From the NCBI GenBank assembly GCA_043228905.1, contig JBHGNT010000154.1, positions 1-64,000 of the forward strand: 64,000 nucleotides of DNA, read 5' to 3'. The notes below the pieces were generated by a model that was not told where the DNA came from, made no database searches, and worked only from the letters and a program-made list of their open reading frames with translations. Position numbers and translations under genes: made by a program. Positions within the stretch are counted from its first letter, which is position 1, and every line of letters begins with the position of its first letter. This document shows, one piece after another, positions 952 through 63,122 of this stretch. Source of the DNA: Azolla caroliniana. Lineage: Eukaryota > Plantae > Polypodiophyta.

Positions 952-956
952 CACAA
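946..956. other. Satellite strand-inversion junction
   Basis: ...GAGTAAATTAAAATGTTC-A-CACAAAAATCCGATATC...: the reverse-oriented monomer ends at 951 and the forward monomer starts at 951, sharing one A. Confidence 0.97.
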
Positions 957-5000: not shown

Positions 5001-8000
5001 TCCATATCATAGCTAGCGTTGTTAGCTTCGATTCGCATGTTTGAACACAAAAATCCGATATCACACGAGCCAGGTATGAACATTTGAATTTACTCCAGGA
5101 CTGCTCTCAACTCCTTCCTCAAGTTTGCTAATTTCGTCATGTCTCTCGACCTGAGTTTCAAAACCTTGATTTTTTAATTCCATATCATAGCTAGCGTTGT
5201 TAGCTTCGATTCGCATGTTTGAACACAAAAATCCGATATAACACGAGCCAGGTATGAACATTTTAATTTACTCAAGGACTCCTCTCAACTCCTTCCTCAA
5301 GTTTGCTAATTTCGTCATGTCTCTCGACCTGAGTTTCAAAATCTGGATTTTTTAATTCCATATCATAGCTAGCGTTGTTAGCTTCGATTCGCATGTTTGA
5401 ACACAAAAATCCGATATCACACGAGCCAGGTATAAACATTTTAATTTACCTACTAGCTCTTCTCAACTCCCTCCTCAAATTTGGTAATTTCGTCAGGTCT
5501 CTCGACCTGAGTTTCAAAATCCTGATTTTTTAATTCCATATCATAGCTAGCGTTGTTAGCTTCGATTCGCATGTTTGAACACAAAAATCCGATATCACAC
5601 GAGCCAGGTATGAACAGTTTAATTTACTCAAGGGCTCCTCTCAACTCCCTCCTCAAGTTTGCTATTTTCGTCATGTCTCTCGACCTGAGTTTCAAAATCT
5701 TGATTTTTAAATTCCATATCATAGCTAGCGTTGTTACCTTCGACTCGCATGTTTGAACACAAAAATCCGATATCACACGAGCCAGGTATGAACATTTTAA
5801 TTTACTCAAGGACTCCTCTCAACTCCTTCCTCAAGTTTGCTAATTTCGTCATGTCTCTCGACCTGAGTTTCAAAACCTTGATTTTTTAATTCCATATCAT
5901 AGCTAGCATTGTTAGCTTCGATTCGCATGTTTGAACACAAAAATCCGATATAACACGAGCCAGGTATGAACATTTTAATTTACTCAAGGACTCCTCTCAA
6001 CCCCTTCCTCAAGTTTGGTAATTTCGTCATGTCTCTCGACCTGAGTTTCAAAATCCTGATTTTTTAATTCCATATCATAGCTAGCGTTGTTAGCTTCGAT
6101 ACGCATGTTTGAACACAAAAATCCGATATCACACGAGCCAGGTATGAACAGTTTAATTTACTCAAGGGCTCCTCTCAACTCCTTCCTCAAGTTTGCTAAT
6201 TTCGTCATGTCTCTCGACCTGACTTTCAAAATCTTGATTTTTTTATTCCATATCATAGCTAGCGTTGTTAGCTTCGATTCGCATGTTTGAACACAAAAAT
6301 CCGATATCACACGAGCCAGGTATGAACATTTGAATTTACTCCAGGACTGCTCTCAACTCCTTCCTCAAGTTTGCTAATTTCGTCATGTCTCTCGACCTGA
6401 GTTTCAAAACCTTGATTTTTTAATTCCATATCATAGCTAGCGTTGTTAGCTTCGATTCGCATGTTTGAACACAAAAATCCGATATAACACGAGCCAGGTA
6501 TGAACATTTTAATTTACTCAAGGACTCCTCTCAACTCCTTCCTCAAGTTTGCTAATTTCGTCATGTCTCTCGACCTGACTTTCAAAATCTTGATTTTTTA
6601 ATTCCATATCATAGCTAGCGTTGTTAGCTTCGATTCGCATGTTTGAACACAAAAATCCGATATCACACGAGCCAGGTATGAACATTTTAATTTACTCAAG
6701 GACTGCTCTCAACTCCTTCCTCAAGTTTGCTAATTTCGTCATGTCTCTCGACCTGAGTTTCAAAACCTTGATTTTTTAATTCCATATCATAGCTAGCGTT
6801 GTTAGCTTCGATTCGCATGTTTGAACACAAAAATCCGATATAACACGAGCCAGGTATGAACATTTTAATTTACTCAAGGACTCCTCTCAACTCCTTCCTC
6901 AAGTTTGCTAATTTCGTCATGTCTCTCGACCTGAGTTTCAAAACCTTGATTTTTTAATTCCATATCATAGCTAGCATTGTTAGCTTCGATTCGCATGTTT
7001 GAACACAAAAATCCGATATAACACGAGCCAGGTATGAACATTTTAATTTACTCAAGGACTCCTCTCAACTCCTTCCTCAAGTTTGCTAATTTCGTCATGT
7101 CTCTCGACCTGAGTTTCAAAATCTGGATTTTTAAATTCCATATCATAGCTAGCGTTGTTAGCTTCGATTCGCATGTTTGAACACAAAAATCCGATATCAC
7201 ACGAGCCAGGTATGAACATTTTAATTTACTCAAGGACTCCTCTCAACTCCTTCCTCAAGTTTGCTAATTTCGTCATGTCTCTCGACCTGAGTTTCAAAAC
7301 CTTGATTTTTTAATTCCATATCATAGCTAGCATTGTTAGCTTCGATTCGCATGTTTGAACACAAAAATCCGATATAACACGAGCCAGGTATGAACATTTT
7401 AATTTACTCAAGGACTCCTCTCAACCCCTTCCTCAAGTTTGCTAATTTCGTCATGTCTCTCGACCTGAGTTTCAAAATCCTGATTTTTTAATTCCATATC
7501 ATAGCTAGCGTTGTTAGCTTCGATTCGCATGTTTGAACACACAAATCCGATATGACACGAACCAGGTATGAACATTTAAATTTACCTCCTAGCTCTTCTA
7601 ACCTCACTCCTCAAATTTGGTAATTTCATCATGTCTCTCGACCTGAGTTTCAAAATCTTGATTTTTTAATTCCATATCATAGCTAGAGTTGTTAGCTTCG
7701 ATTCGCATGTTTGAACACAAAAATCCAATATCACACGAACCAGGTATGAACATTTTAATTTACTCAAGGGCTCCTCTCAACTCCTTCCTCAAGTTAGCTA
7801 ATTTCGTCATGTCTCTCGACCTGAGTTTCAAAATCTTGATTTTTTAATTCCATGTCATAGCTAGCGTTGTTAGCTTCGATTCGCATGTTTGAACACAAAA
7901 ATCCGATATCACACGAGCCAGGTATGAACATTTTAATTTACTCAAGGGCTCGTCTCAACTCCCTCCTCAAGTTTGCTAATTTCGTCATTTCTCTCAACCT

Positions 8001-11000
8001 GAGTTTCAAAATCTTGATTTTTTAATTCCATATCATAGCTAGCATTGTTAGCTTCGATTCGCATGTTTGAACACAGAAATCCGATATCACACGAGCCAGG
8101 TATGAACCTTTTAATTTACTCAAGGGCTCGTCTCAACTCCCTCCTCAAGTTTGCTAATTTTGTCACGTCTCTCGACCTGAGTTTCAAAATCTCGATTTTT
8201 TAATTCCTTATCATAGCTAGCGTTGTTAGCTTCGATTCGCATGTTTGAACATATAAATCCGATATGACACGAACCAGGTATGAACAGTTTAATTTACTCA
8301 AGGGCTCCTCTCAACTCCCTCCTCAAGTTTGCTATTTTCGTCATGTCTCTCGACCTGAGTTTCAAAATCTTGATTTTTTAATTCCATATCATAGCTAGCA
8401 TTGTTAGCTTCGATTCGCATGTTTGAACACAAAAATCCGATATAACACGAGCCAGGTATGAACATTTTAATTTACTCAAGGACTCCTCTCAACTCCTTCC
8501 TCAAGTTTGCTAATTTCGTCATGTCTCTCGACCTGAGTTTCAAAATCTGGATTTTTTAATTCCATATCATAGCTAGCGTTGTTAGCTTCGATTCGCATGT
8601 TTGAACACAAAAATCCGATATCACACGAGCCAGGTATAAACATTTTAATTTACCTACTAGCTCTTCTCAACTCCCTCCTCAAATTTGGTAATTTCGTCAG
8701 GTCTCTCGACCTGAGTTTCAAAATCCTGATTTTTTAATTCCATATCATAGCTAGCGTTGTTAGCTTCGATTCGCATGTTTGAACACAAAAATCCGATATC
8801 ACACGAGCCAGGTATGAACAGTTTAATTTACTCAAGGGCTCCTCTCAACTCCCTCCTCAAGTTTGCTATTTTCGTCATGTCTCTCGACCTGAGTTTCAAA
8901 ATCTTGATTTTTAAATTCCATATCATAGCTAGCGTTGTTACCTTCGACTCGCATGTTTGAACACAAAAATCCGATATCACACGAGCCAGGTATGAACATT
9001 TTAATTTACTCAAGGACTCCTCTCAACTCCTTCCTCAAGTTTGCTAATTTCGTCATGTCTCTCGACCTGAGTTTCAAAACCTTGATTTTTTAATTCCATA
9101 TCATAGCTAGCATTGTTAGCTTCGATTCGCATGTTTGAACACAAAAATCCGATATAACACGAGCCAGGTATGAACATTTTAATTTACTCAAGGACTCCTC
9201 TCAACCCCTTCCTCAAGTTTGGTAATTTCGTCATGTCTCTCGACCTGAGTTTCAAAATCCTGATTTTTTAATTCCATATCATAGCTAGCGTTGTTAGCTT
9301 CGATACGCATGTTTGAACACAAAAATCCGATATCACACGAGCCAGGTATGAACAGTTTAATTTACTCAAGGGCTCCTCTCAACTCCTTCCTCAAGTTTGC
9401 TAATTTCGTCATGTCTCTCGACCTGACTTTCAAAATCTTGATTTTTTTATTCCATATCATAGCTAGCGTTGTTAGCTTCGATTCGCATGTTTGAACACAA
9501 AAATCCGATATCACACGAGCCAGGTATGAACATTTGAATTTACTCCAGGACTGCTCTCAACTCCTTCCTCAAGTTTGCTAATTTCGTCATGTCTCTCGAC
9601 CTGAGTTTCAAAACCTTGATTTTTTAATTCCATATCATAGCTAGCGTTGTTAGCTTCGATTCGCATGTTTGAACACAAAAATCCGATATAACACGAGCCA
9701 GGTATGAACATTTTAATTTACTCAAGGACTCCTCTCAACTCCTTCCTCAAGTTTGCTAATTTCGTCATGTCTCTCGACCTGAGTTTCAAAATCTGGATTT
9801 TTTAATTCCATATCATAGCTAGCGTTGTTAGCTTCGATTCGCATGTTTGAACACAAAAATCCGATATCACACGAGCCAGGTATAAACATTTTAATTTACC
9901 TACTAGCTCTTCTCAACTCCCTCCTCAAATTTGGTAATTTCGTCAGGTCTCTCGACCTGAGTTTCAAAATCCTGATTTTTTAATTCCATATCATAGCTAG
10001 CGTTGTTAGCTTCGATTCGCATGTTTGAACACAAAAATCCGATATCACACGAGCCAGGTATGAACAGTTTAATTTACTCAAGGGCTCCTCTCAACTCCCT
10101 CCTCAAGTTTGCTATTTTCGTCATGTCTCTCGACCTGAGTTTCAAAATCTTGATTTTTAAATTCCATATCATAGCTAGCGTTGTTACCTTCGACTCGCAT
10201 GTTTGAACACAAAAATCCGATATCACACGAGCCAGGTATGAACATTTTAATTTACTCAAGGACTCCTCTCAACTCCTTCCTCAAGTTTGCTAATTTCGTC
10301 ATGTCTCTCGACCTGAGTTTCAAAACCTTGATTTTTTAATTCCATATCATAGCTAGCATTGTTAGCTTCGATTCGCATGTTTGAACACAAAAATCCGATA
10401 TAACACGAGCCAGGTATGAACATTTTAATTTACTCAAGGACTCCTCTCAACCCCTTCCTCAAGTTTGGTAATTTCGTCATGTCTCTCGACCTGAGTTTCA
10501 AAATCCTGATTTTTTAATTCCATATCATAGCTAGCGTTGTTAGCTTCGATACGCATGTTTGAACACAAAAATCCGATATCACACGAGCCAGGTATGAACA
10601 GTTTAATTTACTCAAGGGCTCCTCTCAACTCCTTCCTCAAGTTTGCTAATTTCGTCATGTCTCTCGACCTGACTTTCAAAATCTTGATTTTTTTATTCCA
10701 TATCATAGCTAGCGTTGTTAGCTTCGATTCGCATGTTTGAACACAAAAATCCGATATCACACGAGCCAGGTATGAACATTTGAATTTACTCCAGGACTGC
10801 TCTCAACTCCTTCCTCAAGTTTGCTAATTTCGTCATGTCTCTCGACCTGAGTTTCAAAACCTTGATTTTTTAATTCCATATCATAGCTAGCGTTGTTAGC
10901 TTCGATTCGCATGTTTGAACACAAAAATCCGATATAACACGAGCCAGGTATGAACATTTTAATTTACTCAAGGACTCCTCTCAACTCCTTCCTCAAGTTT

Positions 11001-11050
11001 GCTAATTTCGTCATGTCTCTCGACCTGACTTTCAAAATCTTGATTTTTTT
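2090..11050 (+). repeat. 25-monomer (4,450-bp) tandem duplication, ~2.1-6.6 kb copied at ~6.55-11.05 kb
   Basis: ORF pairs 2598/7048, 4307/8757, 4841/9291, 5553/10003, 6087/10537 and 6307/10757 are all offset by 4450. The diverged block 3061-3900 recurs at 7511-8350. A few differences exist (2238/6688, 2758/7208, 3684/8134, 3902/8352). Ends are approximate. Confidence 0.9.
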
Positions 11051-13250
11051 ATTCCATATCATAGCTAGCGTTGTTAGCTTCGATTCGCATGTTTGAACAC
11101 AAAAATCCGATATCACACGAGCCAGGTATGAACATTTGAATTTACTCCAGGACTGCTCTCAACTCCTTCCTCAAGTTTGCTAATTTCGTCATGTCTCTCG
11201 ACCTGAGTTTCAAAACCTTGATTTTTTAATTCCATATCATAGCTAGCGTTGTTAGCTTCGATTCGCATGTTTGAACACAAAAATCCGATATAACACGAGC
11301 CAGGTATGAACATTTTAATTTACTCAAGGACTCCTCTCAACTCCTTCCTCAAGTTTGCTAATTTCGTCATGTCTCTCGACCTGAGTTTCAAAATCTGGAT
11401 TTTTTAATTCCATATCATAGCTAGCGTTGTTAGCTTCGATTCGCATGTTTGAACACAAAAATCCGATATCACACGAGCCAGGTATAAACATTTTAATTTA
11501 CCTACTAGCTCTTCTCAACTCCCTCCTCAAATTTGGTAATTTCGTCAGGTCTCTCGACCTGAGTTTCAAAATCCTGATTTTTTAATTCCATATCATAGCT
11601 AGCGTTGTTAGCTTCGATTCGCATGTTTGAACACAAAAATCCGATATCACACGAGCCAGGTATGAACAGTTTAATTTACTCAAGGGCTCCTCTCAACTCC
11701 CTCCTCAAGTTTGCTATTTTCGTCATGTCTCTCGACCTGAGTTTCAAAATCTTGATTTTTAAATTCCATATCATAGCTAGCGTTGTTACCTTCGACTCGC
11801 ATGTTTGAACACAAAAATCCGATATCACACGAGCCAGGTATGAACATTTTAATTTACTCAAGGACTCCTCTCAACTCCTTCCTCAAGTTTGCTAATTTCG
11901 TCATGTCTCTCGACCTGAGTTTCAAAACCTTGATTTTTTAATTCCATATCATAGCTAGCATTGTTAGCTTCGATTCGCATGTTTGAACACAAAAATCCGA
12001 TATAACACGAGCCAGGTATGAACATTTTAATTTACTCAAGGACTCCTCTCAACCCCTTCCTCAAGTTTGGTAATTTCGTCATGTCTCTCGACCTGAGTTT
12101 CAAAATCCTGATTTTTTAATTCCATATCATAGCTAGCGTTGTTAGCTTCGATACGCATGTTTGAACACAAAAATCCGATATCACACGAGCCAGGTATGAA
12201 CAGTTTAATTTACTCAAGGGCTCCTCTCAACTCCTTCCTCAAGTTTGCTAATTTCGTCATGTCTCTCGACCTGACTTTCAAAATCTTGATTTTTTTATTC
12301 CATATCATAGCTAGCGTTGTTAGCTTCGATTCGCATGTTTGAACACAAAAATCCGATATCACACGAGCCAGGTATGAACATTTGAATTTACTCCAGGACT
12401 GCTCTCAACTCCTTCCTCAAGTTTGCTAATTTCGTCATGTCTCTCGACCTGAGTTTCAAAACCTTGATTTTTTAATTCCATATCATAGCTAGCGTTGTTA
12501 GCTTCGATTCGCATGTTTGAACACAAAAATCCGATATAACACGAGCCAGGTATGAACATTTTAATTTACTCAAGGACTCCTCTCAACTCCTTCCTCAAGT
12601 TTGCTAATTTCGTCATGTCTCTCGACCTGAGTTTCAAAATCTGGATTTTTTAATTCCATATCATAGCTAGCGTTGTTAGCTTCGATTCGCATGTTTGAAC
12701 ACAAAAATCCGATATCACACGAGCCAGGTATAAACATTTTAATTTACCTACTAGCTCTTCTCAACTCCCTCCTCAAATTTGGTAATTTCGTCAGGTCTCT
12801 CGACCTGAGTTTCAAAATCCTGATTTTTTAATTCCATATCATAGCTAGCGTTGTTAGCTTCGATTCGCATGTTTGAACACAAAAATCCGATATCACACGA
12901 GCCAGGTATGAACAGTTTAATTTACTCAAGGGCTCCTCTCAACTCCCTCCTCAAGTTTGCTATTTTCGTCATGTCTCTCGACCTGAGTTTCAAAATCTTG
13001 ATTTTTAAATTCCATATCATAGCTAGCGTTGTTACCTTCGACTCGCATGTTTGAACACAAAAATCCGATATCACACGAGCCAGGTATGAACATTTTAATT
13101 TACTCAAGGACTCCTCTCAACTCCTTCCTCAAGTTTGCTAATTTCGTCATGTCTCTCGACCTGAGTTTCAAAACCTTGATTTTTTAATTCCATATCATAG
13201 CTAGCATTGTTAGCTTCGATTCGCATGTTTGAACACAAAAATCCGATATA
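3950..13250 (+). repeat. 7-monomer (1,246-bp) higher-order repeat, several full and partial copies, one extended to 9 monomers
   Basis: Identical ORFs are offset by 1246 (4307/5553, 4841/6087, 5061/6307, 8757/10003, 11605/12851). 10003/11605 = 1602 because of an extra 356-bp dimer (10757/11113). The order of variant monomers is conserved. Confidence 0.9.
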
Positions 13251-16200
13251 ACACAAGCCAGGTATGAACATTTTAATTTACTCAAGGACTCCTCTCAACC
13301 CCTTCCTCAAGTTTTGTAATTTCGTCATGTCTCTCGACCTGACTTTCAAAATCTTGATTTTTTAATTCCATATCATAGCTAGCGTTGTTAGCTTCGATAC
13401 GCATGTTTGAACACAAAAATCCGATATCACACGAGCCAGGTATGAACAGTTTAATTTACTCAAGGGCTCCTCTCAACTCCTTCCTCAAGTTTGCTAATTT
13501 CGTCATGTCTCTCGACCTGACTTTGAAAATCTTGATTTTTTAATTCCATATCATAGCTAGCGTTGTTAGCTTCGATTCGCATGTTTGAACACAAAAATCC
13601 GATATCACACGAGCCAGGTATGAACATTTGAATTTACTCAAGGACTCCTCTCAACCCCTTCCTCAAGTTTGGTAATTTCGTCATGTCTCTCGACCTGAGT
13701 TTCAAAATCCTGATTTTTTAATTCCATATCATAGCTAGCGTTGTTAGCTTCGATACGCATGTTTGAACACAAAAATCCGATATCACACGAGCCAGGTATG
13801 AACAGTTTAATTTACTCAAGGGCTCCTCTCAACTCCTTCCTCAAGTTTGCTAATTTCGTCATGTCTCTCGACCTGACTTTGAAAATCTTGATTTTTTAAT
13901 TCCATATCATAGCTAGCGTTGTTAGCTTCGATTCGCATGTTTGAACACAAAAATCCGATATCACACGAGCCAGGTATGAACAGTTTAATTTACTCAAGGG
14001 CTCCTCTCAACTCCTTCCTCAAGTTTGCTAATTTCGTCATGTCTCTCGACCTGACTTTCAAAATCTTGATTTTTTAATTCCATATCATAGCTAGCGTTGT
14101 TAGCTTCGATACGCATGTTTGAACACAAAAATCCGATATCACACGAGCCAGGTATGAACAGTTTAATTTACTCAAGGGCTCCTCTCAACTCCTTCCTCAA
14201 GTTTGCTAATTTCGTCATGTCTCTCGACCTGAGTTTCAAAACCTTGATTTTTTAATTCCATATCATAGCTAGCGTTGTTAGCTTCGATACGCATGTTTGA
14301 ACACAAAAATCCGATATCACACGAGCCAGGTATGAACAGTTTAATTTACTCAAGGGCTCCTCTCAACTCCTTCCTCAAGTTTGCTAATTTCGTCATGTCT
14401 CTCGACCTGACTTTCAAAATCTTGATTTTTTAATTCCATATCATAGCTAGCGTTGTTAGCTTCGATACGCATGTTTGAACACAAAAATCCGATATCACAC
14501 GAGCCAGGTATGAACAGTTTAATTTACTCAAGGGCTCCTCTCAACTCCTTCCTCAAGTTTGCTAATTTCGTCATGTCTCTCGACCTGACTTTGAAAATCT
14601 TGATTTTTTAATTCCATATCATAGCTAGCGTTGTTAGCTTCGATTCGCATGTTTGAACACAAAAATCCGATATCACACGAGCCAGGTATGAACATTTGAA
14701 TTTACTCAAGGACTCCTCTCAACCCCTTCCTCAAGTTTGGTAATTTCGTCATGTCTCTCGACCTGAGTTTCAAAATCCTGATTTTTTAATTCCATATCAT
14801 AGCTAGCGTTGTTAGCTTCGATACGCATGTTTGAACACAAAAATCCGATATCACACGAGCCAGGTATGAACAGTTTAATTTACTCAAGGGCTCCTCTCAA
14901 CTCCTTCCTCAAGTTTGCTAATTTCGTCATGTCTCTCGACCTGACTTTGAAAATCTTGATTTTTTAATTCCATATCATAGCTAGCGTTGTTAGCTTCGAT
15001 TCGCATGTTTGAACACAAAAATCCGATATCACACGAGCCAGGTATGAACAGTTTAATTTACTCAAGGGCTCCTCTCAACTCCTTCCTCAAGTTTGCTAAT
15101 TTCGTCATGTCTCTCGACCTGACTTTCAAAATCTTGATTTTTTAATTCCATATCATAGCTAGCGTTGTTAGCTTCGATACGCATGTTTGAACACAAAAAT
15201 CCGATATCACACGAGCCAGGTATGAACAGTTTAATTTACTCAAGGGCTCCTCTCAACTCCTTCCTCAAGTTTGCTAATTTCGTCATGTCTCTCGACCTGA
15301 CTTTGAAAATCTTGATTTTTTAATTCCATATCATAGCTAGCGTTGTTAGCTTCGATTCGCATGTTTGAACACAAAAATCCGATATCACACGAGCCAGGTA
15401 TGAACAGTTTAATTTACTCAAGGGCTCCTCTCAACTCCTTCCTCAAGTTTGCTAATTTCGTCATGTCTCTCGACCTGACTTTCAAAATCTTGATTTTTTA
15501 ATTCCATATCATAGCTAGCGTTGTTAGCTTCGATTCGCATGTTTGAACACAAAAATCCGATATCACACGAGCCAGGTATGAACATTTGAATTTACTCAAG
15601 GACTGCTCTCAACTCCTTCCTCAAGTTTGCTAATTTCGTCATGTCTCTCGACCTGAGTTTCAAAACCTTGATTTTTTAATTCCATATCATAGCTAGCGTT
15701 GTTAGCTTCGATTCGCATGTTTGAACACAAAAATCCGATATCACACGAGCCAGGTATGAACATTTTAATTTACTCAAGGACTCCTCTCAACTCCTTCCTC
15801 AAGTTTGCTAATTTCGTCATGTCTCTCGACCTGAGTTTCAAAACCTTGATTTTTTAATTCCATATCATAGCTAGCATTGTTAGCTTCGATTCGCATGTTT
15901 GAACACAAAAATCCGATATAACACGAGCCAGGTATGAACATTTTAATTTACTCAAGGACTCCTCTCAACTCCTTCCTCAAGTTTGCTAATTTCGTCATGT
16001 CTCTCGACCTGAGTTTCAAAATCTGGATTTTTAAATTCCATATCATAGCTAGCGTTGTTAGCTTCGATTCGCATGTTTGAACACAAAAATCCGATATCAC
16101 ACGAGCCAGGTATGAACATTTTAATTTACTCAAGGACTCCTCTCAACTCCTTCCTCAAGTTTGCTAATTTCGTCATGTCTCTCGACCTGAGTTTCAAAAC

Positions 16201-19200
16201 CTTGATTTTTTAATTCCATATCATAGCTAGCATTGTTAGCTTCGATTCGCATGTTTGAACACAAAAATCCGATATAACACGAGCCAGGTATGAACATTTT
16301 AATTTACTCAAGGACTCCTCTCAACCCCTTCCTCAAGTTTGCTAATTTCGTCATGTCTCTCGACCTGAGTTTCAAAATCTTGATTTTTTAATTCCATATC
16401 ATAGCTAGCGTTGTTAGCTTCGATACGCATGTTTGAACACAAAAATCCGATATCACACGAGCCAGGTATGAACAGTTTAATTTACTCAAGGGCTCCTCTC
16501 AACTCCTTCCTCAAGTTTGCTAATTTCGTCATGTCTCTCGACCTGACTTTCAAAATCTTGATTTTTTAATTCCATATCATAGCTAGCGTTGTTAGCTTCG
16601 ATTCGCATGTTTGAACACAAAAATCCGATATCACACGAGCCAGGTATGAACATTTTAATTTACTCAAGGACTCCTCTCAACTCCTTCCTCAAGTTTGCTA
16701 ATTTCGTCATGTCTCTCGACCTGAGTTTCAAAACCTTGATTTTTTAATTCCATATCATAGCTAGCATTGTTAGCTTCGATTCGCATGTTTGAACACAAAA
16801 ATCCGATATCACACGAGCCAGGTATGAACATTTTAATTTACTCAAGGACTCCTCTCAACTCCTTCCTCAAGTTTGCTAATTTCGTCATGTCTCTCGACCT
16901 GAGTTTCAAAACCTTGATTTTTTAATTCCATATCATAGCTAGCATTGTTAGCTTCGATTCGCATGTTTGAACACAAAAATCCGATATAACACGAGCCAGG
17001 TATGAACATTTTAATTTACTCAAGGACTCCTCTCAACTCCTTCCTCAAGTTTGCTAATTTCGTCATGTCTCTCGACCTGAGTTTCAAAATCTGGATTTTT
17101 AAATTCCATATCATAGCTAGCGTTGTTAGCTTCGATTCGCATGTTTGAACACAAAAATCCGATATCACACGAGCCAGGTATAAACATTTTAATTTACCTA
17201 CTAGCTCTTCTCAACTCCCTCCTCAAATTTGGTAATTTCGTCAGGTCTCTCGCCCTGAGTTTCAAAATCCTGATTTTTTAATTCCATATCATAGCTAGCG
17301 TTGTTAGCTTCGATTCGCATGTTTGAACACAAAAATCCGATATCACACGAGCCAGGTATGAACAGTTTAATTTACTCAAGGGCTCCTCTCAACTGCCTCC
17401 TCAAGTTTGCTATTTTCGTCATGTCTCTCGTCCTGAGTTTCAAAATCTTGATTTTTAAATTCCATATCATAGCTAGCGTTGTTACCTTCGACTCGCATGT
17501 TTGAACACAAAAATCCGATATTACACGAGCCAGGTATGAACATTTTAATTTACTCAAGGACTCCTCTCAACTCCTTCCTCAAGTTTGCTAATTTCGTCAT
17601 GTCTCTCGACCTAAGTTTCAAAACCTTGATTTTTTAATTCCATATCATAGCTAGCATTGTTAGCTTCGATTCGCATGTTTGAACACAAAAATCCGATATA
17701 ACACGAGCCAGGTATGAACATTTTAATTTACTCAAGGACTCCTCTCAACCCCTTCCTCAAGTTTGCTAATTTCGTCATGTCTCTCGACCTGAGTTTCAAA
17801 ATCTGGATTTTTAAATTCCATATCATAGCTAGCGTTGTTAGCTTCGATTCGCATGTTTGAACACAAAAATCCGATATCACACGAGCCAGGTATAAACATT
17901 TTAATTTACCTACTAGCTCTTCTCAACTCCCTCCTCAAATTTGGTAATTTCGTCAGGTCTCTCGCCCTGAGTTTCAAAATCCTGATTTTTTAATTCCATA
18001 TCATAGCTAGCGTTGTTAGCTTCGATTCGCATGTTTGAACACAAAAATCCGATATCACACGAGCCAGGTATGAACAGTTTAATTTACTCAAGGGCTCCTC
18101 TCAACTCCCTCCTCAAGTTTGCTATTTTCGTCATGTCTCTCGACCTGAGTTTCAAAATCTTGATTTTTAAATTCCATATCATAGCTAGCGTTGTTACCTT
18201 CGACTCGCATGTTTGAACACAAAAATCCGATATCACACGAGCCAGGTATGAACATTTAAATTTACCTCCTAGCTCTTCTAACCTCACTCCTCAAATTTGG
18301 TAATTTCATCATGTCTCTCGACCTGAGTTTCAAAATCTTGATTTTTTAATTCCATATCATAACCCTAAACCCTAAAAATCCGATATAACACAAGCCAGGT
18401 ATGAACATTTTAATTTACTCAAGGACTCCTCTCAACCCCTTCCTCAAGTTTTGTAATTTCGTCATGTCTCTCGACCTGACTTTCAAAATCTTCATTTTTT
18501 AATTCCATATCATAGCTAGCGTTGTTAGCTTCGATACGCATGTTTGAACACAAAAATCTGATATCACACGAGCCAGGTATGAACAGTTTAATTTACTCAA
18601 GGGCTCCTCTCAACTCCTTCCTCAAGTTTGCTAATTTCGTCATGTCTCTCGACCTGACTTTGAAAATCTTGATTTTTTAATTCCATATCATAGCTAGCGT
18701 TGTTAGCTTCGATACGCATGTTTGAACACAAAAATCTGATATCACACGAGCCAGGTATGAACAGTTTAATTTACTCAAGGGCTCCTCTCAACTCCTTCCT
18801 CAAGTTTGCTAATTTCGTCATGTCTCTCGACCTGACTTTGAAAATCTTGATTTTTTAATTCCATATCATAGCTAGCGTTGTTAGCTTCGATTCGCATGTT
18901 TGAACACAAAAATCCGATATCACACGAGCCAGGTATGAACAGTTTAATTTACTCAAGGGCTCCTCTCAACTCCTTCCTCAAGTTTGCTAATTTCGTCATG
19001 TCTCTCGACCTGACTTTCAAAATCTTGATTTTTTAATTCCATATCATAGCTAGCGTTGTTAGCTTCGATTCGCATGTTTGAACACAAAAATCCGATATCA
19101 CACGAGCCAGGTATGAACATTTGAATTTACTCAAGGACTGCTCTCAACTCCTTCCTCAAGTTTTCTAATTTCGTCATGTCTCTCGACCTGAGTTTCAAAA

Positions 19201-21834
19201 CCTTGATTTTTTAATTCCATATCATAGCTAGCGTTGTTAGCTTCGATTCGCATGTTTGAACACAAAAATCCGATATCACACGAGCCAGGTATGAACATTT
19301 TAATTTACTCAAGGACTCCTCTCAACTCCTTCCTCAAGTTTGCTAATTTCGTCATGTCTCTCGACCTGAGTTTCAAAACCTTGATTTTTTAATTCCATAT
19401 CATAGCTAGCATTGTTAGCTTCGATTCGCATGTTTGAACACAAAAATCCGATATAACAGGAGCCAGGTATGAACATTTTAATTTACTCAAGGACTCCTCT
19501 CAACTCCTTCCTCAAGTTTGCTAATTTCGTCATGTCCCTCGACCTGAGTTTCAAAATCTAGATTTTTAAATTCCATATCATAGCTAGCGTTGTTAGCTTC
19601 GATTCGCATGTTTGAACACAAAAATCCGATATCACACGAGCCAGGTATGAACATTTTAATTTACTCAAGGACTCCTCTCAACTCCTTCCTCAAGTTTGCT
19701 AATTTCGTCATGTCTCTCGACCTGAGTTTCAAAACCTTGATTTTTTAATTCCATATCATAGCTAGCATTGTTAGCTTCGATTCGCATGTTTGAACACAAA
19801 AATCCGATATAACACGAGCCAGGTATGAACATTTTAATTTACTCAAGGACTCCTCTCAACCCCTTCCTCAAGTTTGCTAATTTCGTCATGTCTCTCGACC
19901 TGAGTTTCAAAATCTTGATTTTTTAATTCCATATCATAGCTAGCGTTGTTAGCTTCGATACGCATGTTTGAACACAAAAATCCGATATCACACGAGCCAG
20001 GTATGAACAGTTTAATTTACTCAAGGGCTCCTCTCAACTCCTTCCTCAAGTTTGCTAATTTCGTCATGTCTCTCGACCTGACTTTCAAAATCTTGATTTT
20101 TTAATTCCATATCATAGCTAGCGTTGTTAGCTTCGATTCGCATGTTTGAACACAAAAATCCGATATCACACGAGCCAGGTATGAACATTTTAATTTACTC
20201 AAGGACTCCTCTCAACTCCTTCCTCAAGTTTGCTAATTTCGTCATGTCTCTCGACCTGAGTTTCAAAACCTTGATTTTTTAATTCCATATCATAGCTAGC
20301 ATTGTTAGCTTCGATTCGCATGTTTGAACACAAAAATCCGATATCACACGAGCCAGGTATGAACATTTTAATTTACTCAAGGACTCCTCTCAACTCCTTC
20401 CTCAAGTTTGCTAATTTCGTCATGTCTCTCGACCTGAGTTTCAAAACCTTGATTTTTTAATTCCATATCATAGCTAGCATTGTTAGCTTCGATTCGCATG
20501 TTTGAACACAAAAATCCGATATAACACGAGCCAGGTATGAACATTTTAATTTACTCAAGGACTCCTCTCAACTCCTTCCTCAAGTTTGCTAATTTCGTCA
20601 TGTCTCTCGACCTGAGTTTCAAAATCTGGATTTTTAAATTCCATATCATAGCTAGCGTTGTTAGCTTCGATTCGCATGTTTGAACACAAAAATCCGATAT
20701 CACACGAGCCAGGTATAAACATTTTAATTTACCTACTAGCTCTTCTCAACTCCCTCCTCAAATTTGGTAATTTCGTCAGGTCTCTCGCCCTGAGTTTCAA
20801 AATCCTGATTTTTTAATTCCATATCATAGCTAGCGTTGTTAGCTTCGATTCGCATGTTTGAACACAAAAATCCGATATCACACGAGCCAGGTATGAACAG
20901 TTTAATTTACTCAAGGGCTCCTCTCAACTGCCTCCTCAAGTTTGCTATTTTCGTCATGTCTCTCGTCCTGAGTTTCAAAATCTTGATTTTTAAATTCCAT
21001 ATCATAGCTAGCGTTGTTACCTTCGACTCGCATGTTTGAACACAAAAATCCGATATTACACGAGCCAGGTATGAACATTTTAATTTACTCAAGGACTCCT
21101 CTCAACTCCTTCCTCAAGTTTGCTAATTTCGTCATGTCTCTCGACCTAAGTTTCAAAACCTTGATTTTTTAATTCCATATAATAGCTAGCATTGTTAGCT
21201 TCGATTCGCATGTTTGAACACAAAAATCCGATATAACACGAGCCAGGTATGAACATTTTAATTTACTCAAGGACTCCTCTCAACCCCTTCCTCAAGTTTG
21301 CTAATTTCGTCATGTCTCTCGACCTGAGTTTCAAAACCTTGATTTTTTAATTCCATATCATAGCTAGCGTTGTTAGCTTCGATTCGCATGTTTGAACACA
21401 AAAATCCGATATCACACGAGCCAGGTATAAACATTTTAATTTACCTACTAGCTCTTCTCAACTCCCTCCTCAAATTTGGTAATTTCGTCAGGTCTCTCGC
21501 CCTGAGTTTCAAAATCCTGATTTTTTAATTCCATATCATAGCTAGCGTTGTTAGCTTCGATTCGCATGTTTGAACACAAAAATCCGATATCACACGAGCC
21601 AGGTATGAACAGTTTAATTTACTCAAGGGCTCCTCTCAACTCCCTCCTCAAGTTTGCTATTTTCGTCATGTCTCTCGACCTGAGTTTCAAAATCTTGATT
21701 TTTAAATTCCATATCATAGCTAGCGTTGTTACCTTCGACTCGCATGTTTGAACACAAAAATCCGATATCACACGAGCCAGGTATGAACATTTAAATTTAC
21801 CTCCTAGCTCTTCTAACCTCACTCCTCAAATTTG
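13237..21834 (+). repeat. Tandem duplication: 13237-18361 (29 monomers) and 18374-~21834 (~20 monomers), joined by a telomeric insert
   Basis: Both copies begin with the rare combination ATAACACAAGCC...CCCCTTCC...GTTTTGTAAT (offset 5137 = 29x178-25). Their distal parts are offset by 3535 = 20x178-25 (ORFs 17301/20836, 18013/21548, 18084/21619). Confidence 0.85.
18361..18376 (-). repeat. Interstitial plant-type telomere repeats (TTTAGGG)2; + strand AACCCTAAACCCTAAA
   Basis: ACCCTAAACCCT (18362-18373) replaces 37 bp of monomer (net -25 bp, confirmed by the register shift). It is an exact in-phase match to (CCCTAAA)n over 16 nt including flanking A's. Confidence 0.9.
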
Positions 21835-24800
21835 CTAATTTCGTCATGTCTCTCGACCTAAGTTTCAAAACCTTGATTTTTTAATTCCATATCATAGCTA
21901 GCATTGTTAGCTTCGATTCGCATGTTTGAACACAAAAATCCGATATAACACGAGCCAGGTATGAACATTTTAATTTACTCAAGGACTCCTCTCAACCCCT
22001 TCCTCAAGTTTGCTAATTTCGTCATGTCTCTCGACCTGAGTTTCAAAATCTGGATTTTTAAATTCCATATCATAGCTAGCGTTGTTAGCTTCGATTCGCA
22101 TGTTTGAACACAAAAATCCGATATCACACGAGCCAGGTATAAACATTTTAATTTACCTACTAGCTCTTCTCAACTCCCTCCTCAAATTTGGTAATTTCGT
22201 CAGGTCTCTCGCCCTGAGTTTCAAAATCCTGATTTTTTAATTCCATATCATAGCTAGCGTTGTTAGCTTCGATTCGCATGTTTGAACACAAAAATCCGAC
22301 ATCACACGAGCCAGGTATGAACAGTTTAATTTACTCAAGGGCTCCTCTCAACTCCCTCCTCAAGTTTGCTATTTTCGTCATGTCTCTCGACCTGAGTTTC
22401 AAAATCTTGATTTTTAAATTCCATATCATAGCTAGCGTTGTTACCTTCGACTCGCATGTTTGAACACAAAAATCCGATATCACACGAGCCAGGTATGAAC
22501 ATTTTAATTTACTCAAGGACTCCTCTCAACTCCTTCCTCAAGTTTGCTAATTTCGTCTTGTCTCTCGACCTAAGTTTCAAAACCTTGATTTTTTAATTCC
22601 ATATCATAGCTAGCATTGTTAGCTTCGATTCGCATGTTTGAACACAAAAATCCGATATAACACGAGCCAGGTATGAACATTTTAATTTACTCAAGGACTC
22701 CTCTCAACCCCTTCCTCAAGTTTGCTAATTTCGTCATGTCTCTCGACCTGAGTTTCAAAATCTGGATTTATAAATTCCATATCATAGCTAGCGTTGTTAG
22801 CTTCGATTCGCATGTTTGAACACAAAAATCCGATATCACACGAGCCAGGTATAAACATTTTAATTTACTCAAGGGCTCCTCTCAACTCCTTCCTCAAGTT
22901 TGCTAATTTCGTCATGTCTCTCGACCTGAGTTTCAAAACCTTGATTTTTTAATTCCATATCATAGCTAGCATTGTTAGCTTCGATTCGCATGTTTGAACA
23001 CAAAAATCCGATATCACACGAGCCAGGTATGAACATTTTAATTTACTTAAGGGCTCCTCTCAACTCCTTCCTCAAATTTGCTAATTTCGTCATGTCTCTC
23101 GACCTGAGTTTCAAAATCTGGATTTTTAAATTCCATATCATAGCTAGCGTTGTTAGCTTCGATTCGCATGTTTGAACACAAAAATCCGATATCACACGAG
23201 CCAGGTATAAACATTTTAATTTACCTACTAGCTCTTCTCAACTCCCTCCTCAAATTTGGTAATTTCGTCAGGTCTCTCGACGTGAGTTTCAAAATCCTGA
23301 TTTTTTAATTCCATATCATAGCTAGCGTTGTTAGCTTCGATTCGCATGTTTGAACACAAAAATCTGATATCACACGAGCCAGGTATGAACAGTTTAATTT
23401 ACTCAAGGGCTCCTCTCAACTCCCTCCTCAAGTTTGCTATTTTCGTCATGTCTCTCGACCTAAGTTTCAAAATCTTGATTTTTTAATTCCATATCATAGC
23501 TAGCGTTGTTACCTTCGATTCGCATGTTTGAACACAAAAATCCGATATCACACGAGCCAGGTATGAACATTTTAATTTACTCAAGGGCTCCTCTCAACTC
23601 CCTCCTCAAATTTGCTAATTTCGTCATGTCTCTCGACCTTAGTTTCAAAAACTTGATTTTTTAATTCCATATCATAGCTAGGGTTGTTAGCTCTGATTCG
23701 CATGTTTGAACACAAAAATCCGATATCACACGAGCCAGGTATAAACATTTTAATTTACCTATTAGCTCTTCTCAACTCCCTCCTCAAATTTGGTAATTTC
23801 GTCAGGTCTCTCGACCTGAGTTTCAAAATCCTGATTTTTTAATTCCATATCATAGCTAGCGTTGTTAGCTTCGATTCGCATGTTTGAACACAAAAATCCG
23901 ATATCACACGAGCCAGGTATGAACAGTTTAATTTACTCAAGGGCTCCTCTCAACTCCTTCCTCAAGTTTGCTAATTTCGTCATGTCTCTCGACCTGACTT
24001 TCAAAATCTTGATTTTTTAATTCCATATTATAGCTAGCGTTGTTAGCTTCGATTCGCATGTTTGAACACAAAAATCCGATATCACACGAGCCAGGTATGA
24101 ACATTTTAATTTACTCAAGGACTGCTCTCAACTCCTTCCTCAAGTTTGCTAATTTCGTCATGTCTCTCGACCTGAGTTTCAAAACCTTGATTTTTTAATT
24201 CCATATCATAACTAGCGTTGTTAGCTTCGATTCGCATGTTTGAACACAAAAATCCGATATAACACGAGCCAGGTATGAACATTTTAATTTACTCAAGGAC
24301 TCCTCTCAACTCCTTCCTCAAGTTTGCTAATTTCGTCATGTCTCTCGACCTGAGTTTCAAAATCTGGATTTTTAAATTCCATATCATAGCTAGCGTTGTT
24401 AGCTTCGATTCGCATGTTTGAACACAAAAATCCGATATCACACGAGCCAGGTATAAACATTTTAATTTACCTACTAGCTCTTCTCAACTCCCTCCTCAAA
24501 TTTGGTAATTTCGTCAGGTCTCTCGACCTGAGTTTCAAAATCCTGATTTTTTAATTCCATATCATAGCTAGCGTTGTTAGCTTCGATTCGCATGTTTGAA
24601 CACAAAAATCCGATATCACACGAGCCAGGTATGAACAGTTTAATTTACTCAAGGGCTCCTCTCAACTCCTTCCTCAAGTTTGCTAATTTCGTCATGTCTC
24701 TCGACCTGACTTTCAAAATCTTGATTTTTTAATTCCATATTATAGCTAGCGTTGTTAGCTTCGATTCGCATGTTTGAACACAAAAATCCGATATCACACG

Positions 24801-26989
24801 AGCCAGGTATGAACAGTTTAATTTACTCAAGGGCTCCTCTCAACTCCCTCCTCAAGTTTGCTATTTTCGTCATGTCTCTCGACCTGAGTTTCAAAATCTT
24901 GATTTTTAAATTCCATATCATAGCTAGCGTTGTTACCTTCGACTCGCATGTTTGAACACAAAAATCCGATATCACTCGAGCCAGGTATGAACATTTTAAT
25001 TTACTCAAGGACTCCTCTCAACTCCTTCCTCAAGTTTGCTAATTTCGTCATGTCTCTCGACCTGAGTTTCAAAACCTTGATTTTTTAATTCCATATCATA
25101 GCTAGCGTTGTTAGCTTCGATTCGCATGTTTGAACACAAAAATCCGATATCACACGAGCCAGGTATGAACAGTTTAATTTACTCAAGGGCTCCTCTCAAC
25201 TCCCTCCTCAAGTTTGCTATTTTCGTCATGTCTCTCGACCTGAGCTTCAAAATCTTGATTTTTTAATTCCATATCATAGCTAGCGTTGTTACCTTCGACT
25301 CGCATGTTTGAACACAAAAATCCGATATCACACGAGCCAGGTATGAACATTTTAATTTACTCAAGGACTCCTCTCAACTCCTTCCTCAAGTTTGCTAATT
25401 TCGTCATGTCTCTCGACCTGAGTTTCAAAACCTTGATTTTTTAATTCCATATCATAGCTAGCATTGTTAGCTTCGATTCGCATGTTTGAACACAAAAATC
25501 CGATATAACACGAGCCAGGTATGAACATTTTAATTTACTCAAGGACTCCTCTCAACCCCTTCCTCAAGTTTGCTAATTTCGTCATGTCTCTCGACCTGAC
25601 TTTCAAAATCTTGATTTTTTAATTCCATATCATAGCTAGCGTTGTTAGCTTCGATACGCATGTTTGAACACAAAAATCCGATATCACACGAGCCAGGTAT
25701 GAACAGTTTAATTTACTCAAGGGCTCCTCTCAACTCCTTCCTCAAGTTTGCTAATTTCGTCATGTCTCTCGACCTGAGTTTCAAAACCTTGATTTTTTAA
25801 TTCCATATCATAGCTAGCGTTGTTAGCTTCGATTCGCATGTTTGAACACAAAAATCCGATATCACACGAGCCAGGTATAAACAGTTTAATTTACTCAAGG
25901 GCTCCTCTCAACTCCTTCCTCAAGTTTGCTAATTTCGTCATGTCTCTCGACCTGACTTTCAAAATCTTGATTTTTTTATTCCATATCATAGCTAGCGTTG
26001 TTAGCTTCGATTCGCATGTTTGAACACAAAAATCCGATATCACACGAGCCAGGTATGAACATTTGAATTTACTCCAGGACTGCTCTCAACTCCTTCCTCA
26101 AGTTTGCTAATTTCGTCATGTCTCTCGACCTGAGTTTCAAAACCTTGATTTTTTAATTCCATATCATAGCTAGCGTTGTTAGCTTCGATTCGCATGTTTG
26201 AACACAAAAATCCGATATAACACGAGCCAGGTATGAACATTTTAATTTACTCAAGGACTCCTCTCAACTCCTTCCTCAAGTTTGCTAATTTCGTCATGTC
26301 TCTCGACCTGAGTTTCAAAATCTGGATTTTTTAATTCCATATCATAGCTAGCGTTGTTAGCTTCGATTCGCATGTTTGAACACAAAAATCCGATATCACA
26401 CGAGCCAGGTATAAACATTTTAATTTACCTACTAGCTCTTCTCAACTCCCTCCTCAAATTTGGTAATTTCGTCAGGTCTCTCGACCTGAGTTTCAAAATC
26501 CTGATTTTTTAATTCCATATCATAGCTAGCATTGTTAGCTTCGATTCGCATGTTTGAACACAAAAATCCGATATAACACGAGCCAGGTATGAACATTTTA
26601 ATTTACTCAAGGACTCCTCTCAACCCCTTCCTCAAGTTTGGTAATTTCGTCATGTCTCTCGACCTGAGTTTCAAAATCCTGATTTTTTAATTCCATATCA
26701 TAGCTAGCGTTGTTAGCTTCGATACGCATGTTTGAACACAAAAATCCGATATCACACGAGCCAGGTATGAACAGTTTAATTTAGTCAAGGGCTCCTCTCA
26801 ACTCCTTCCTCAAGTTTGCTAATTTCGTCATGTCTCTCGACCTGACTTTCAAAATCTTGATTTTTTTATTCCATATCATAGCTAGCGTTGTTAGCTTCGA
26901 TTCGCATGTTTGAACACAAAAATCCGATATCACACGAGCCAGGTATGAACATTTGAATTTACTCAAGGACTGCTCTCAACTCCTTCCTC

Positions 26990-29900
26990 AAGTTTCCTAA
27001 TTTCGTCATGTCTCTCGACCTGAGTTTCAAAACCTTGATTTTTTAATTCCATATCATAGCTAGCATTGTTAGCTTCGATTCGCATGTTTGAACACAAAAA
27101 TCCGATATAACACGAGCCAGGTATGAACATTTTAATTTACTCAAGGACTCCTCTCAACCCCTTCCTCAAGTTTGCTAATTTCGTCATGTCTCTCGACCTG
27201 ACTTTCAAAATCTTGATTTTTTAATTCCATATCATAGCTAGCGTTGTTAGCTTCGATACGCATGTTTGAACACAAAAATCCGATATCACACGAGCCAGGT
27301 ATGAACAGTTTAATTTACTCAAGGGCTCCTCTCAACTCCTTCCTCAAGTTTGCTAATTTCGTCATGTCTCTCGACCTGAGTTTCAAAACCTTGATTTTTT
27401 AATTCCATATCATAGCTAGCGTTGTTAGCTTCGATTCGCATGTTTGAACACAAAAATCCGATATCACACGAGCCAGGTATAAACAGTTTAATTTACTCAA
27501 GGGCTCCTCTCAACTCCTTCCTCAAGTTTGCTAATTTCGTCATGTCTCTCGACCTGACTTTCAAAATCTTGATTTTTTTATTCCATATCATAGCTAGCGT
27601 TGTTAGCTTCGATTCGCATGTTTGAACACAAAAATCCGATATCACACGAGCCAGGTATGAACATTTGAATTTACTCCAGGACTGCTCTCAACTCCTTCCT
27701 CAAGTTTGCTAATTTCGTCATGTCTCTCGACCTGAGTTTCAAAACCTTGATTTTTTAATTCCATATCATAGCTAGCGTTGTTAGCTTCGATTCGCATGTT
27801 TGAACACAAAAATCCGATATAACACGAGCCAGGTATGAACATTTTAATTTACTCAAGGACTCCTCTCAACTCCTTCCTCAAGTTTGCTAATTTCGTCATG
27901 TCTCTCGACCTGAGTTTCAAAATCTGGATTTTTTAATTCCATATCATAGCTAGCGTTGTTAGCTTCGATTCGCATGTTTGAACATAAAAATCCGATATCA
28001 CACGAGCCAGGTATAAACATTTTAATTTACCTACTAGCTCTTCTCAACTCCCTCCTCAAATTTGGTAATTTCGTCAGGTCTCTCGACCTGAGTTTCAAAA
28101 TCCTGATTTTTTAATTCCATATCATAGCTAGCATTGTTAGCTTCGATTCGCATGTTTGAACACAAAAATCCGATATAACACGAGCCAGGTATGAACATTT
28201 TAATTTACTCAAGGACTCCTCTCAACCCCTTCCTCAAGTTTGGTAATTTCGTCATGTCTCTCGACCTGAGTTTCAAAATCCTGATTTTTTAATTCCATAT
28301 CATAGCTAGCGTTGTTAGCTTCGATACGCATGTTTGAACACAAAAATCCGATATCACACGAGCCAGGTATGAACAGTTTAATTTAGTCAAGGGCTCCTCT
28401 CAACTCCTTCCTCAAGTTTGCTAATTTCGTCATGTCTCTCGACCTGACTTTCAAAATCTTGATTTTTTTATTCCATATCATAGCTAGCGTTGTTAGCTTC
28501 GATTCGCATGTTTGAACACAAAAATCCGATATCACACGAGCCAGGTATGAACATTTGAATTTACTCCAGGACTGCTCTCAACTCCTTCCTCAAGTTTCCT
28601 AATTTCGTCATGTCTCTCGACCTGAGTTTCAAAACCTTGATTTTTTAATTCCATATCATAGCTAGCGTTGTTAGCTTCGATTCGCATGTTTGAACACAAA
28701 AATCCGATATAACACGAGCCAGGTATGAACATTTTAATTTACTCAAGGACTCCTCTCAACTCCTTCCTCAAGTTTGCTAATTTCGTCATGTCTCTCGACC
28801 TGAGTTTCAAAATCTGGATTTTTTAATTCCATATCATAGCTAGCGTTGTTAGCTTCGATTCGCATGTTTGAACACAAAAATCCGATATCACACGAGCCAG
28901 GTATAAACATTTTAATTTACCTACTAGCTCTTCTCAACTCCCTCCTCAAATTTGGTAATTTCGTCAGGTCTCTCGACCTGAGTTTCAAAATCCTGATTTT
29001 TTAATTCCATATCATAGCTAGCGTTGTTAGCTTCGATTCGCATGTTTGAACACAAAAATCCGATATCACACGAGCCAGGTATGAACAGTTTAATTTACTC
29101 AAGGGCTCCTCTCAACTCCCTCCTCAAGTTTGCTAATTTCGTCATGTCTCTCGACCTGAGTTTCAAAATCTGGATTTTTAAATTCCATATCATAGCTAGC
29201 GTTGTTAGCTTCGATTCGCATGTTTTAACACAAAAATCCGATATCACACGAGCCAGGTATGAACATTTTAATTTACTCAAGGACTCCTCTCAACTCCCTC
29301 CTCAAGTTTGCTAATTTCGTCATGTCTCTCGACCTGAGTTTCAAAATCTTGATTTTTAAATTCCATATCATAGCTAGCGTTGTTACCTTCGACTCGCATG
29401 TTTGAACACAAAAATCCGATATCACTCGAGCCAGGTATGAACATTTTAATTTACTCAAGGACTCCTCTCAACTCCTTCCTCAAGTTTGCTAATTTCGTCA
29501 TGTCTCTCGACCTGAGTTTCAAAACCTTGATTTTTTAATTCCATATCATAGCTAGCGTTGTTAGCTTCGATTCGCATGTTTGAACACAAAAATCCGATAT
29601 CACACGAGCCAGGTATGAACAGTTTAATTTACTCAAGGGCTCCTCTCAACTCCCTCCTCAAGTTTGCTATTTTCGTCATGTCTCTCGACCTGAGCTTCAA
29701 AATCTTGATTTTTTAATTCCATATCATAGCTAGCGTTGTTACCTTCGACTCGCATGTTTGAACACAAAAATCCGATATCACACGAGCCAGGTATGAACAT
29801 TTTAATTTACTCAAGGACTCCTCTCAACTCCTTCCTCAAGTTTGCTAATTTCGTCATGTCTCTCGACCTGAGTTTCAAAACCTTGATTTTTTAATTCCAT

Positions 29901-38700: not shown

Positions 38701-38869
38701 CCATATCATAGCTAGCATTGTTAGCTTCGATTCGCATGTTTGAACACAAAAATCCGATATCACACGAGCCAGATATGAACAGTTTAATTTACTCAAGGGC
38801 TCCTCTCAACTCCTTCCTCAAGTTTGCTAATTTCGTCATGTCTCTCGACCTGAGTTTCAAAACCTTGAT

Positions 38870-62800: not shown

Positions 62801-63122
62801 ACCTGAGTTTCAAAATCTTGATTTTTTAATTCCATATCATAGCTAGCGTTGTTAGCTTCGATTCGCATGTTTGAACACAAAAATCCGATATCACACAAGC
62901 CAGGTATGAACATTTTAATTTACCTACTAGCTCTTCTCAACTCCCTCCTCAAATTTGGTAATTTCGTCAGGTCTCTCGACCTGAGTTTCAATATCCTGAT
63001 TTTTTAATTCCATATCATAGCTAGCGTTGTTAGCTTCGATTCGCATGTTTAAACACAAAAATCCGATATCACACGAGCCAGGTATGAACAGTTTAATTTA
63101 CTCAAGGGCTCCTCTCAACTCC
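43172..63122 (+). repeat. 56-monomer (9,940-bp) tandem duplication, junction between 53112 and 53182
   Basis: Every ORF from 43930 to 51912 recurs at +9940. Private variants recur at 47344/57284, 48861/58801, 50318/60258, 50691/60631, 51521/61461 and ~52700/62640. The match breaks at 43171/53111 and 53183/63123. 9940 = 56x178-28. Confidence 0.93.

What the first reader, a model, noticed from the sequence alone, without database searches (positions are those of the whole stretch)
18340..18400. Telomere repeats inserted exactly at the junction of a multi-kb satellite duplication: candidate telomerase-assisted break repair linked to array expansion
Seen: ...CCATATCATA|ACCCTAAACCCT|AAAAATCCG...; 37 bp of monomer is missing and 12 non-satellite bases are present. 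On the minus strand the right fragment ends ...CGGATTTTT-3' and continues AGGG TTTAGGG T(T), so the satellite's own TTT is in phase with TTTAGGG. The sequence to the right is not the expected next monomer; it restarts a copy of the monomer at 13237 (rare ACACAAGCC + GTTTTGTAAT), so the insert is the seam of a tandem duplication. Established: TTTAGGG is the Arabidopsis-type telomere repeat. Telomerase primes on 3' ends with a few nt of template complementarity, and short interstitial telomeric inserts at repaired breaks have been described. Inference: a break in the satellite was briefly extended by telomerase and then end-joined to an out-of-register sister or homologous end, growing the array by kilobases. 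It is the only clearly foreign sequence in the window. Weaker alternative: two templated copies of AACCCTA, the reverse complement of the TAGGGTT variant seen at 23679.
Basis: partly seen in the sequence, partly recalled or inferred. Interest (0 to 1): 0.85.

Follow-up and report, generated by a model that had tools for sequence, protein, structure and literature searches.

The report
Telomere-repeat scar inside satellite DNA
A 12-base piece of plant-type telomere repeat sits where two misaligned copies of a 178-base satellite are joined, likely a scar left when telomerase briefly extended a broken DNA end before repair; such scars are a known kind, and whether this break also made the neighbouring 3.5-5 kb duplication is untested.

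Summary
At 18362-18373, 12 non-satellite bases replace 37 bases of a 178-bp monomer. With flank bases they form a perfect 16-nt plant-type telomere match, the only one over 7 nt in the window. The right flank restarts the monomer at 13237 (119 nt exact; next best 18), and 18374-~21835 copies 13237-18361. Chance and satellite-templated filler are unlikely (about 1e-6; 19 of 2,000,000 simulations). The best reading is a short interstitial telomeric sequence, likely added by telomerase at a break and then end-joined, a kind known from mammals and proposed for Arabidopsis centromeres. The claim that this event grew the array is not shown: a deletion across the seam of an older duplication leaves the same sequence, and the array has a copy seam every 500-600 bp. 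The species' telomere motif and read support could not be obtained. The host is likely a fern (earlier unchecked notes). The scan noted similar scars before in diatom satellite and arthropod DNA. One event, known kind, new setting.

The parts
18362..18373 (-). 12-nt non-satellite insert; G-rich strand on minus, 1.7 telomere units; perfect match extends to 18361-18376
18374..18378 (-). Satellite's five-T run on the minus strand; the last three T are in phase with the repeat (inferred priming end)
   Evidence: 5 of 178 minus-strand ends would fit this phase (share 0.028)
18361..18361 (.). One base shared by the left flank and the repeat (possible 1-nt microhomology at the join)
18223..18375 (+). 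153-bp out-of-register monomer: consensus 1-139, insert, consensus 177-178; positions 140-176 missing
13237..18361 (+). Left copy of the duplicated block, 29 monomers, with 9 more monomers than the right copy
18374..21835 (+). Right copy of the block, about 19.5 monomers; carries 7 point differences; ends in an in-register switch to another block
951..64000 (+). 178-bp satellite array with higher-order blocks; 340 of 355 parsed units are exactly 178 bp, 118 distinct types

Best explanation
This is a 12-base telomere-type insert at an out-of-register join in a satellite array, likely added by telomerase to a broken end that was then likely end-joined instead of becoming a new telomere. Shown: the insert, its phase, the 37-bp loss and the block match on both sides. 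Inferred steps: (1) a double-strand break exposed a 3' end finishing in TTT on the fragment that now continues to the right; (2) telomerase paired with up to 3 T and added about two units; (3) that end was joined to the left fragment with at most 1 nt of overlap. How the flanking duplication relates is open. Either one end first copied 3.5-5 kb from the sister by break-induced synthesis and the two ends were then joined, making the duplication and the scar in one event (about 45% given a telomeric scar), or the break removed 37 + n x 178 bp across the seam of an older duplication (about 55%).
For: Perfect 16-nt match, the only one above 7 nt in 64 kb. A random 12-mer of this composition is telomeric with probability 9.7e-7. 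The flank is in phase for 3 nt, which 2.8% of minus-strand ends would give; in-register bases plus a flanking deletion are the pattern of horse short ITSs (31 of 40 loci in register; PMC7215372, passages). The other filler junction in this array is built from satellite pieces of 11 and 13 nt found in 45 and 32 of 340 full monomers, whereas the longest piece of this insert found elsewhere is 7 nt and more than 5 kb away. Contigs of 4 of 4 runs continue as normal satellite at 18361 and 18374, which fixes both break points. Telomeres are added at Cas9 breaks in Arabidopsis centromeric satellite within 2-3 generations (10.64898/2026.07.24.740321, passages). Monomer lengths show almost no homopolymer noise (340 of 355 exactly 178 bp).
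Against: One event, under two full repeat units. The species' telomere motif was not verified; a plant host rests on unchecked earlier notes. No telomerase-RNA flanking sequence is present, so nothing names the enzyme. Human neotelomere junctions with 0-3 nt microhomology were read by their authors as closer to capture by end joining than to perfect telomerase priming (PMC11293586, passages). The in-phase T bases are ambiguous, as any microhomology is: they could be added rather than inherited. For the one-event version: in Arabidopsis 56 of 56 and 274 of 275 large centromeric indels kept the repeat register, and the single exception was a deletion (10.1101/2025.06.02.657473, passages); copy seams occur every 490-610 bp here.
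Confidence: 0.55

Rival explanations
1. The insert is telomeric but telomerase did not make it: a repair polymerase (polymerase theta type) primed on the TTT end, copied a few bases from telomeric or interstitial telomeric DNA or RNA in trans, or a telomeric fragment was captured, and the end was then joined.
For: It predicts the same in-phase priming. This array shows multi-template filler of the theta type at the 171-bp junction. Capture and retrotranscribed telomeric RNA are named alternatives in PMC11293586 and PMC7215372 (passages).
Against: Theta-type fillers are described as templated by flanking sequence (PMC13031629, passages), and no telomeric template lies in the window. The insert is purely canonical repeat with no variant or non-telomeric bases.
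Confidence: 0.22
2. An endonuclease-lacking Penelope-type retroelement used the broken end as primer and stopped after copying only the telomere-like stretch of its RNA.
For: An earlier unchecked note reports such an element in this genome (e1-10619883). These elements carry reverse-complement telomeric stretches and attach to exposed G-rich ends (PMC8557442, passages).
Against: No element-derived base lies in the insert. These elements are described as attaching to telomeric overhangs, not to satellite ends.
Confidence: 0.08
3. Assembly or read artefact.
For: The junction occurs once in the window.
Against: A misjoin would not add 12 canonical telomere bases in phase; the array is otherwise clean in length; the two block copies differ at 7 point sites and in monomer number, so they are not one sequence placed twice.
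Confidence: 0.07
4. Filler copied from the satellite itself, or untemplated bases, that mimics a telomere by chance.
For: Four monomers carry a 7-mer that is a rotation of the telomere unit. A scan of many windows sees many junctions.
Against: 0 of 2,000,000 simulated repeated-piece fillers from the 800 bp around the join and 19 of 2,000,000 from the whole window were telomeric; random 12-mer probability 9.7e-7.
Confidence: 0.05

Closest known systems
Short interstitial telomeric sequences inserted at double-strand breaks (horse, human; PMC7215372, passages; PMC11293586, passages)
   Same: Short perfect repeat at an internal site, bases in register at the 3' end, flanking deletion. Human germline cases pair 6-7 repeats with a 14-kb deletion or a 14-19 bp duplication.
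   Different: Under two units long, inside a tandem satellite, at the border of a kilobase block duplication, in what is likely a fern. No empty orthologous allele in hand.
CenTel mosaic satellites of Arabidopsis interstitial telomeric domains (10.64898/2026.05.10.723265, whole main text; supplements not seen)
   Same: Telomeric repeat abutting a truncated 178-bp satellite unit. The authors find point mutation cannot give multi-repeat islands and propose telomerase healing of breaks as the missing step.
   Different: Here one unamplified 12-nt insert, not ~180-bp islands in 500-600 bp amplified units; a different satellite.
De novo telomeres at Cas9 breaks in Arabidopsis CEN178 (10.64898/2026.07.24.740321, passages)
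   Same: Telomerase-type repeat added sharply to broken centromeric satellite; break repair came with a new tandem higher-order repeat.
   Different: There the end became a ~2-kb terminal telomere; here extension stopped and the end was rejoined.
Polymerase-theta-dependent tandem duplications (worm and Arabidopsis TONSL/TONSOKU mutants; PMC13031629, passages)
   Same: Model of one end extended by break-induced synthesis and rejoined to the other end, with short inserts at the seam.
   Different: Their inserts are templated from the flanks; the word 'telomer' has 0 hits in that paper's main text.
Periodicity-preserving satellite indels (10.1101/2025.06.02.657473, passages)
   Same: Kilobase tandem and complex duplications of whole monomers explain most of this window.
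   Different: This junction breaks the register by 25 bp and adds foreign bases.

Membership tests
Short ITS inserted at a DNA break | Perfect telomere-type repeat at an internal site | tested here: met
   16-nt perfect match inside the array
Short ITS inserted at a DNA break | Repeat equals the organism's own telomere motif | not testable with these tools
   No genome held; paper passages give the motif for plants in general, none for this species or for ferns
Short ITS inserted at a DNA break | Bases in register with the repeat at the 3' break end | tested here: met
   TTT in phase; 2.8% of ends by chance; exact break position inside the T run is ambiguous
Short ITS inserted at a DNA break | End-joining type change at the site (deletion, addition) | tested here: met
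   At least 37 bp missing, 1-nt overlap
Short ITS inserted at a DNA break | Empty allele at the orthologous site | tested here: inconclusive
   Intact monomers stand in for the empty site, but the allele of this exact locus cannot be picked out of short contigs
TERC-ITS | Flanking bases copied from telomerase RNA outside the template | tested here: not met
   All 12 inserted bases are repeat
CenTel mosaic satellite | Telomeric island next to a truncated satellite unit | tested here: met
   153-bp unit, though the island is 12 nt, not ~180
CenTel mosaic satellite | Mosaic unit amplified into arrays | tested here: not met
   1 copy in 64 kb
Polymerase-theta tandem duplication | Seam insert templated from flanking sequence, or microhomology | tested here: not met
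   No piece above 5 nt within 400 bp; 1-nt overlap only
Polymerase-theta tandem duplication | Junction is the seam made by the duplication itself | tested here: inconclusive
   Blocks match on both sides, but a deletion across an older seam gives the same sequence
Periodicity-preserving homology-directed indel | Whole monomers added or lost | tested here: not met
   Offsets are n x 178 - 25

The most novel reading that the evidence does not exclude
Telomerase (or a telomere-targeting retroelement enzyme) acted on one end of a break while the other end was copying kilobases of satellite from the sister, so that one repair event both grew the array and planted a telomeric seed. This would be a single-copy snapshot of the seeding step that the Arabidopsis CenTel model proposes but did not show, in a seed-free plant. 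The array can amplify such scars: its other filler junction already stands in 11 copies.
Probability: 0.25. Interest if true: 0.6.

Novelty: new member of a known kind. Interest (0 to 1): 0.3.

Why it matters
Satellite arrays mostly change by whole monomers, so out-of-register scars are rare records of which enzymes reach a break there. A telomeric scar says that a telomere-making activity touched a break inside the array and was overruled by end joining. If such inserts recur with in-phase priming, they would make testable how telomere-satellite mosaics and interstitial telomeric blocks of plants get started. As a single 12-base event with the enzyme unnamed, it is a good example rather than a discovery.

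Tried and rejected
Whole genome: none held, so no telomere motif check and no array-wide scan. Laying contigs: on 331 bp, no listed piece crossed the insert in 4 runs (X1, X3, X4, X2; tables cut); on the 60-bp junction, 0 contigs were laid in 4 of 4 runs (X1, X2, X5, X6). These are short-contig sets, probably of other individuals, and the tool warns that a blank proves nothing, so it is not counted against the junction. Metagenome contig scans: junction-type pattern 0; satellite control pattern also 0, so uninformative. Naming the satellite: motif search gave 18 unrelated papers; 'fern genome + satellite + 178 bp + centromer' gave 0. A fern telomere motif or telomerase template was not found in the passages seen. 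Mutation asymmetry as a sign of error-prone repair synthesis: 7 of 7 point differences lie on the right copy (20 hand-paired monomers; the 9 extra left monomers unpaired; p = 0.016, post hoc), but changes are not strand-coordinated, a control pair (offset 4450) is also one-sided 4:0, and gene conversion is a known source; not used as support. Earlier findings by sequence, near, 'satellite' in this genome and a seven-word query gave nothing. No paper describing a telomeric insert at a satellite duplication seam turned up in searches; this library lacks most subscription papers, and bioRxiv supplements are closed.

Full report
Setting. The window is one satellite with a 178-bp unit. Parsing from 957 gives 355 units: 340 of 178 bp, 11 of 171, one each of 153, 260 and 180, and a cut last unit; 118 distinct types. 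The first 950 bp are the same satellite in the opposite orientation. No genome is held. Earlier unchecked notes on other pieces of this genome call it a seed-free plant, likely a fern. Whether the array is centromeric or subtelomeric is not known.

The observation. The 153-bp unit at 18223 keeps consensus positions 1-139, then carries ACCCTAAACCCT (18362-18373), then positions 177-178; 37 bp are missing. With one flank base on the left and three on the right, the match to the plant-type repeat is perfect over 16 nt. The only other telomere-perfect runs of 7 nt or more are four 7-mers in point-variant monomers, the nearest 5.3 kb away and on the other strand. On the minus strand the right fragment ends in five T and runs on in phase. 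Contigs of 4 of 4 laid runs continue as ordinary satellite at 18361 and at 18374, which confirms both break points.

Chance. An 11-nt motif with one mismatch is not rare in 64 kb (30 of 100 shuffles). The exact insert is: a random 12-mer is telomeric with probability 9.7e-7; fillers simulated by repeating a 4-9 nt piece were telomeric in 0 of 2,000,000 draws from the 800 bp around the join and 19 of 2,000,000 from the whole window; 5 of 178 minus-strand ends offer the needed TTT. The window holds five distinct out-of-register junctions, leaving aside the small indels of the 180-bp unit: a 46-bp deletion near 180, the inversion near 951, this one, an 82-bp duplication at 29943, and the 171-bp unit. 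The 171-bp unit is a useful control: 30 bp lost, 23 nt of filler, with pieces of 11 and 13 nt found in 45 and 32 of the 340 full monomers. Ordinary filler in this array is therefore copied from the satellite; this insert is not.

The duplication. The right flank matches 13237 exactly for 119 nt (next best 18). Over 3450 bp the right flank's best match is 14839 (21 mismatches, next 96) and the left flank's is 21896 (20, next 85). So 18374-~21835 is a copy of 13237-18361 at offsets 5137 and 3535; the left copy has 9 more monomers, and the right copy ends in an in-register switch near 21835. The copies differ at 7 point sites, while the youngest duplication in the window (43172-53182, offset 9940) is identical over 10,011 bp, so this one is older. 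A 1305-bp part exists a third time at 32858. If a longer unit had already been duplicated in register, a break that removed 37 + n x 178 bp across its seam would leave exactly this sequence. A greedy copy parse gives 103 phrases, one seam per 490-610 bp. The 171-bp junction also joins two different monomer types (no full monomer fits both its sides), so joining of non-adjacent monomers is not special to the telomeric case. In Arabidopsis 56 of 56 and 274 of 275 large centromeric indels kept register, the exception being a 116-bp deletion (10.1101/2025.06.02.657473, passages). In favour of one event: the join sits at the border of one of few multi-kilobase tandem blocks, and break-induced extension followed by end joining is an established route to tandem duplications in worms and Arabidopsis (PMC13031629, passages). 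I put the two at about even. The 7:0 excess of changes on the right copy (p = 0.016, post hoc) would fit a repair-synthesised copy, but a control pair is also one-sided (4:0), so I do not count it.

Mechanism. Most likely a break exposed a 3' end finishing in TTT on the right-hand fragment; telomerase added about two units; the end was joined to the left fragment with at most one shared base. This matches short interstitial telomeric sequences of mammals, where 31 of 40 informative horse loci have bases in register and deletion is the commonest change (PMC7215372, passages). Non-processive addition by telomerase was proposed for short motifs in plant genomes (PMC3022908, passages), telomeres form quickly at cut Arabidopsis centromeric satellite (10.64898/2026.07.24.740321, passages), and the CenTel preprint invokes telomerase healing of breaks for the step that point mutation cannot supply (10.64898/2026.05.10.723265, whole main text; supplements not seen and may list such junctions). 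Sequence alone cannot name the enzyme: copying or capture of telomeric nucleic acid (PMC11293586, passages) and a telomere-targeting Penelope-type element, noted in this genome by an unchecked earlier report (PMC8557442, passages), predict the same letters.

What is missing. The species' telomere motif, read support for the junction and any second example. The run and metagenome searches were uninformative.

Verdict. A real and clean telomere-type scar at an end-joined break in satellite DNA; a new member of a known kind. The scan has noted the same class before in diatom satellite and in arthropod and rotifer DNA (unchecked). The more exciting claim, that the same event expanded the array, stays possible at about one in four overall. 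Interest 0.3.

Noticed in passing
window 39284-39454 and 10 more copies to 59854: 171-bp monomer with 30 bp lost and a 23-nt filler assembled from satellite pieces; it joins two different monomer types and has been amplified to 11 copies, showing that an end-joining scar can enter the higher-order repeat.
   Followed up: yes
window ~951: Orientation flip of the array; the join shows no filler and little overlap.
   Followed up: partly
window 29862-30025: 82-bp out-of-register tandem duplication inside one monomer, no filler.
   Followed up: partly
window 51-319: 132-bp unit in the inverted part: 46-bp deletion between two short similar words.
   Followed up: partly
window 43172-63122: Perfect tandem duplication, 10,011 bp identical at offset 9940 (56 monomers, no difference); very young, or placed twice by the assembler.
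   Followed up: partly
window 18374-21835: All 7 point differences between the two block copies lie on the right copy; not strand-coordinated; a control pair is one-sided too.
   Followed up: yes
window 23679, 36577, 63378, 63556: A single substitution turns the monomer into a 7-nt rotation of the telomere unit, like the point-mutation telomeric motifs described for Arabidopsis CEN178.
   Followed up: no
window 63059-64000: Monomers become more divergent, with 10 of the window's 25 private variants in 4 units and a 180-bp unit; probably the start of another block.
   Followed up: no
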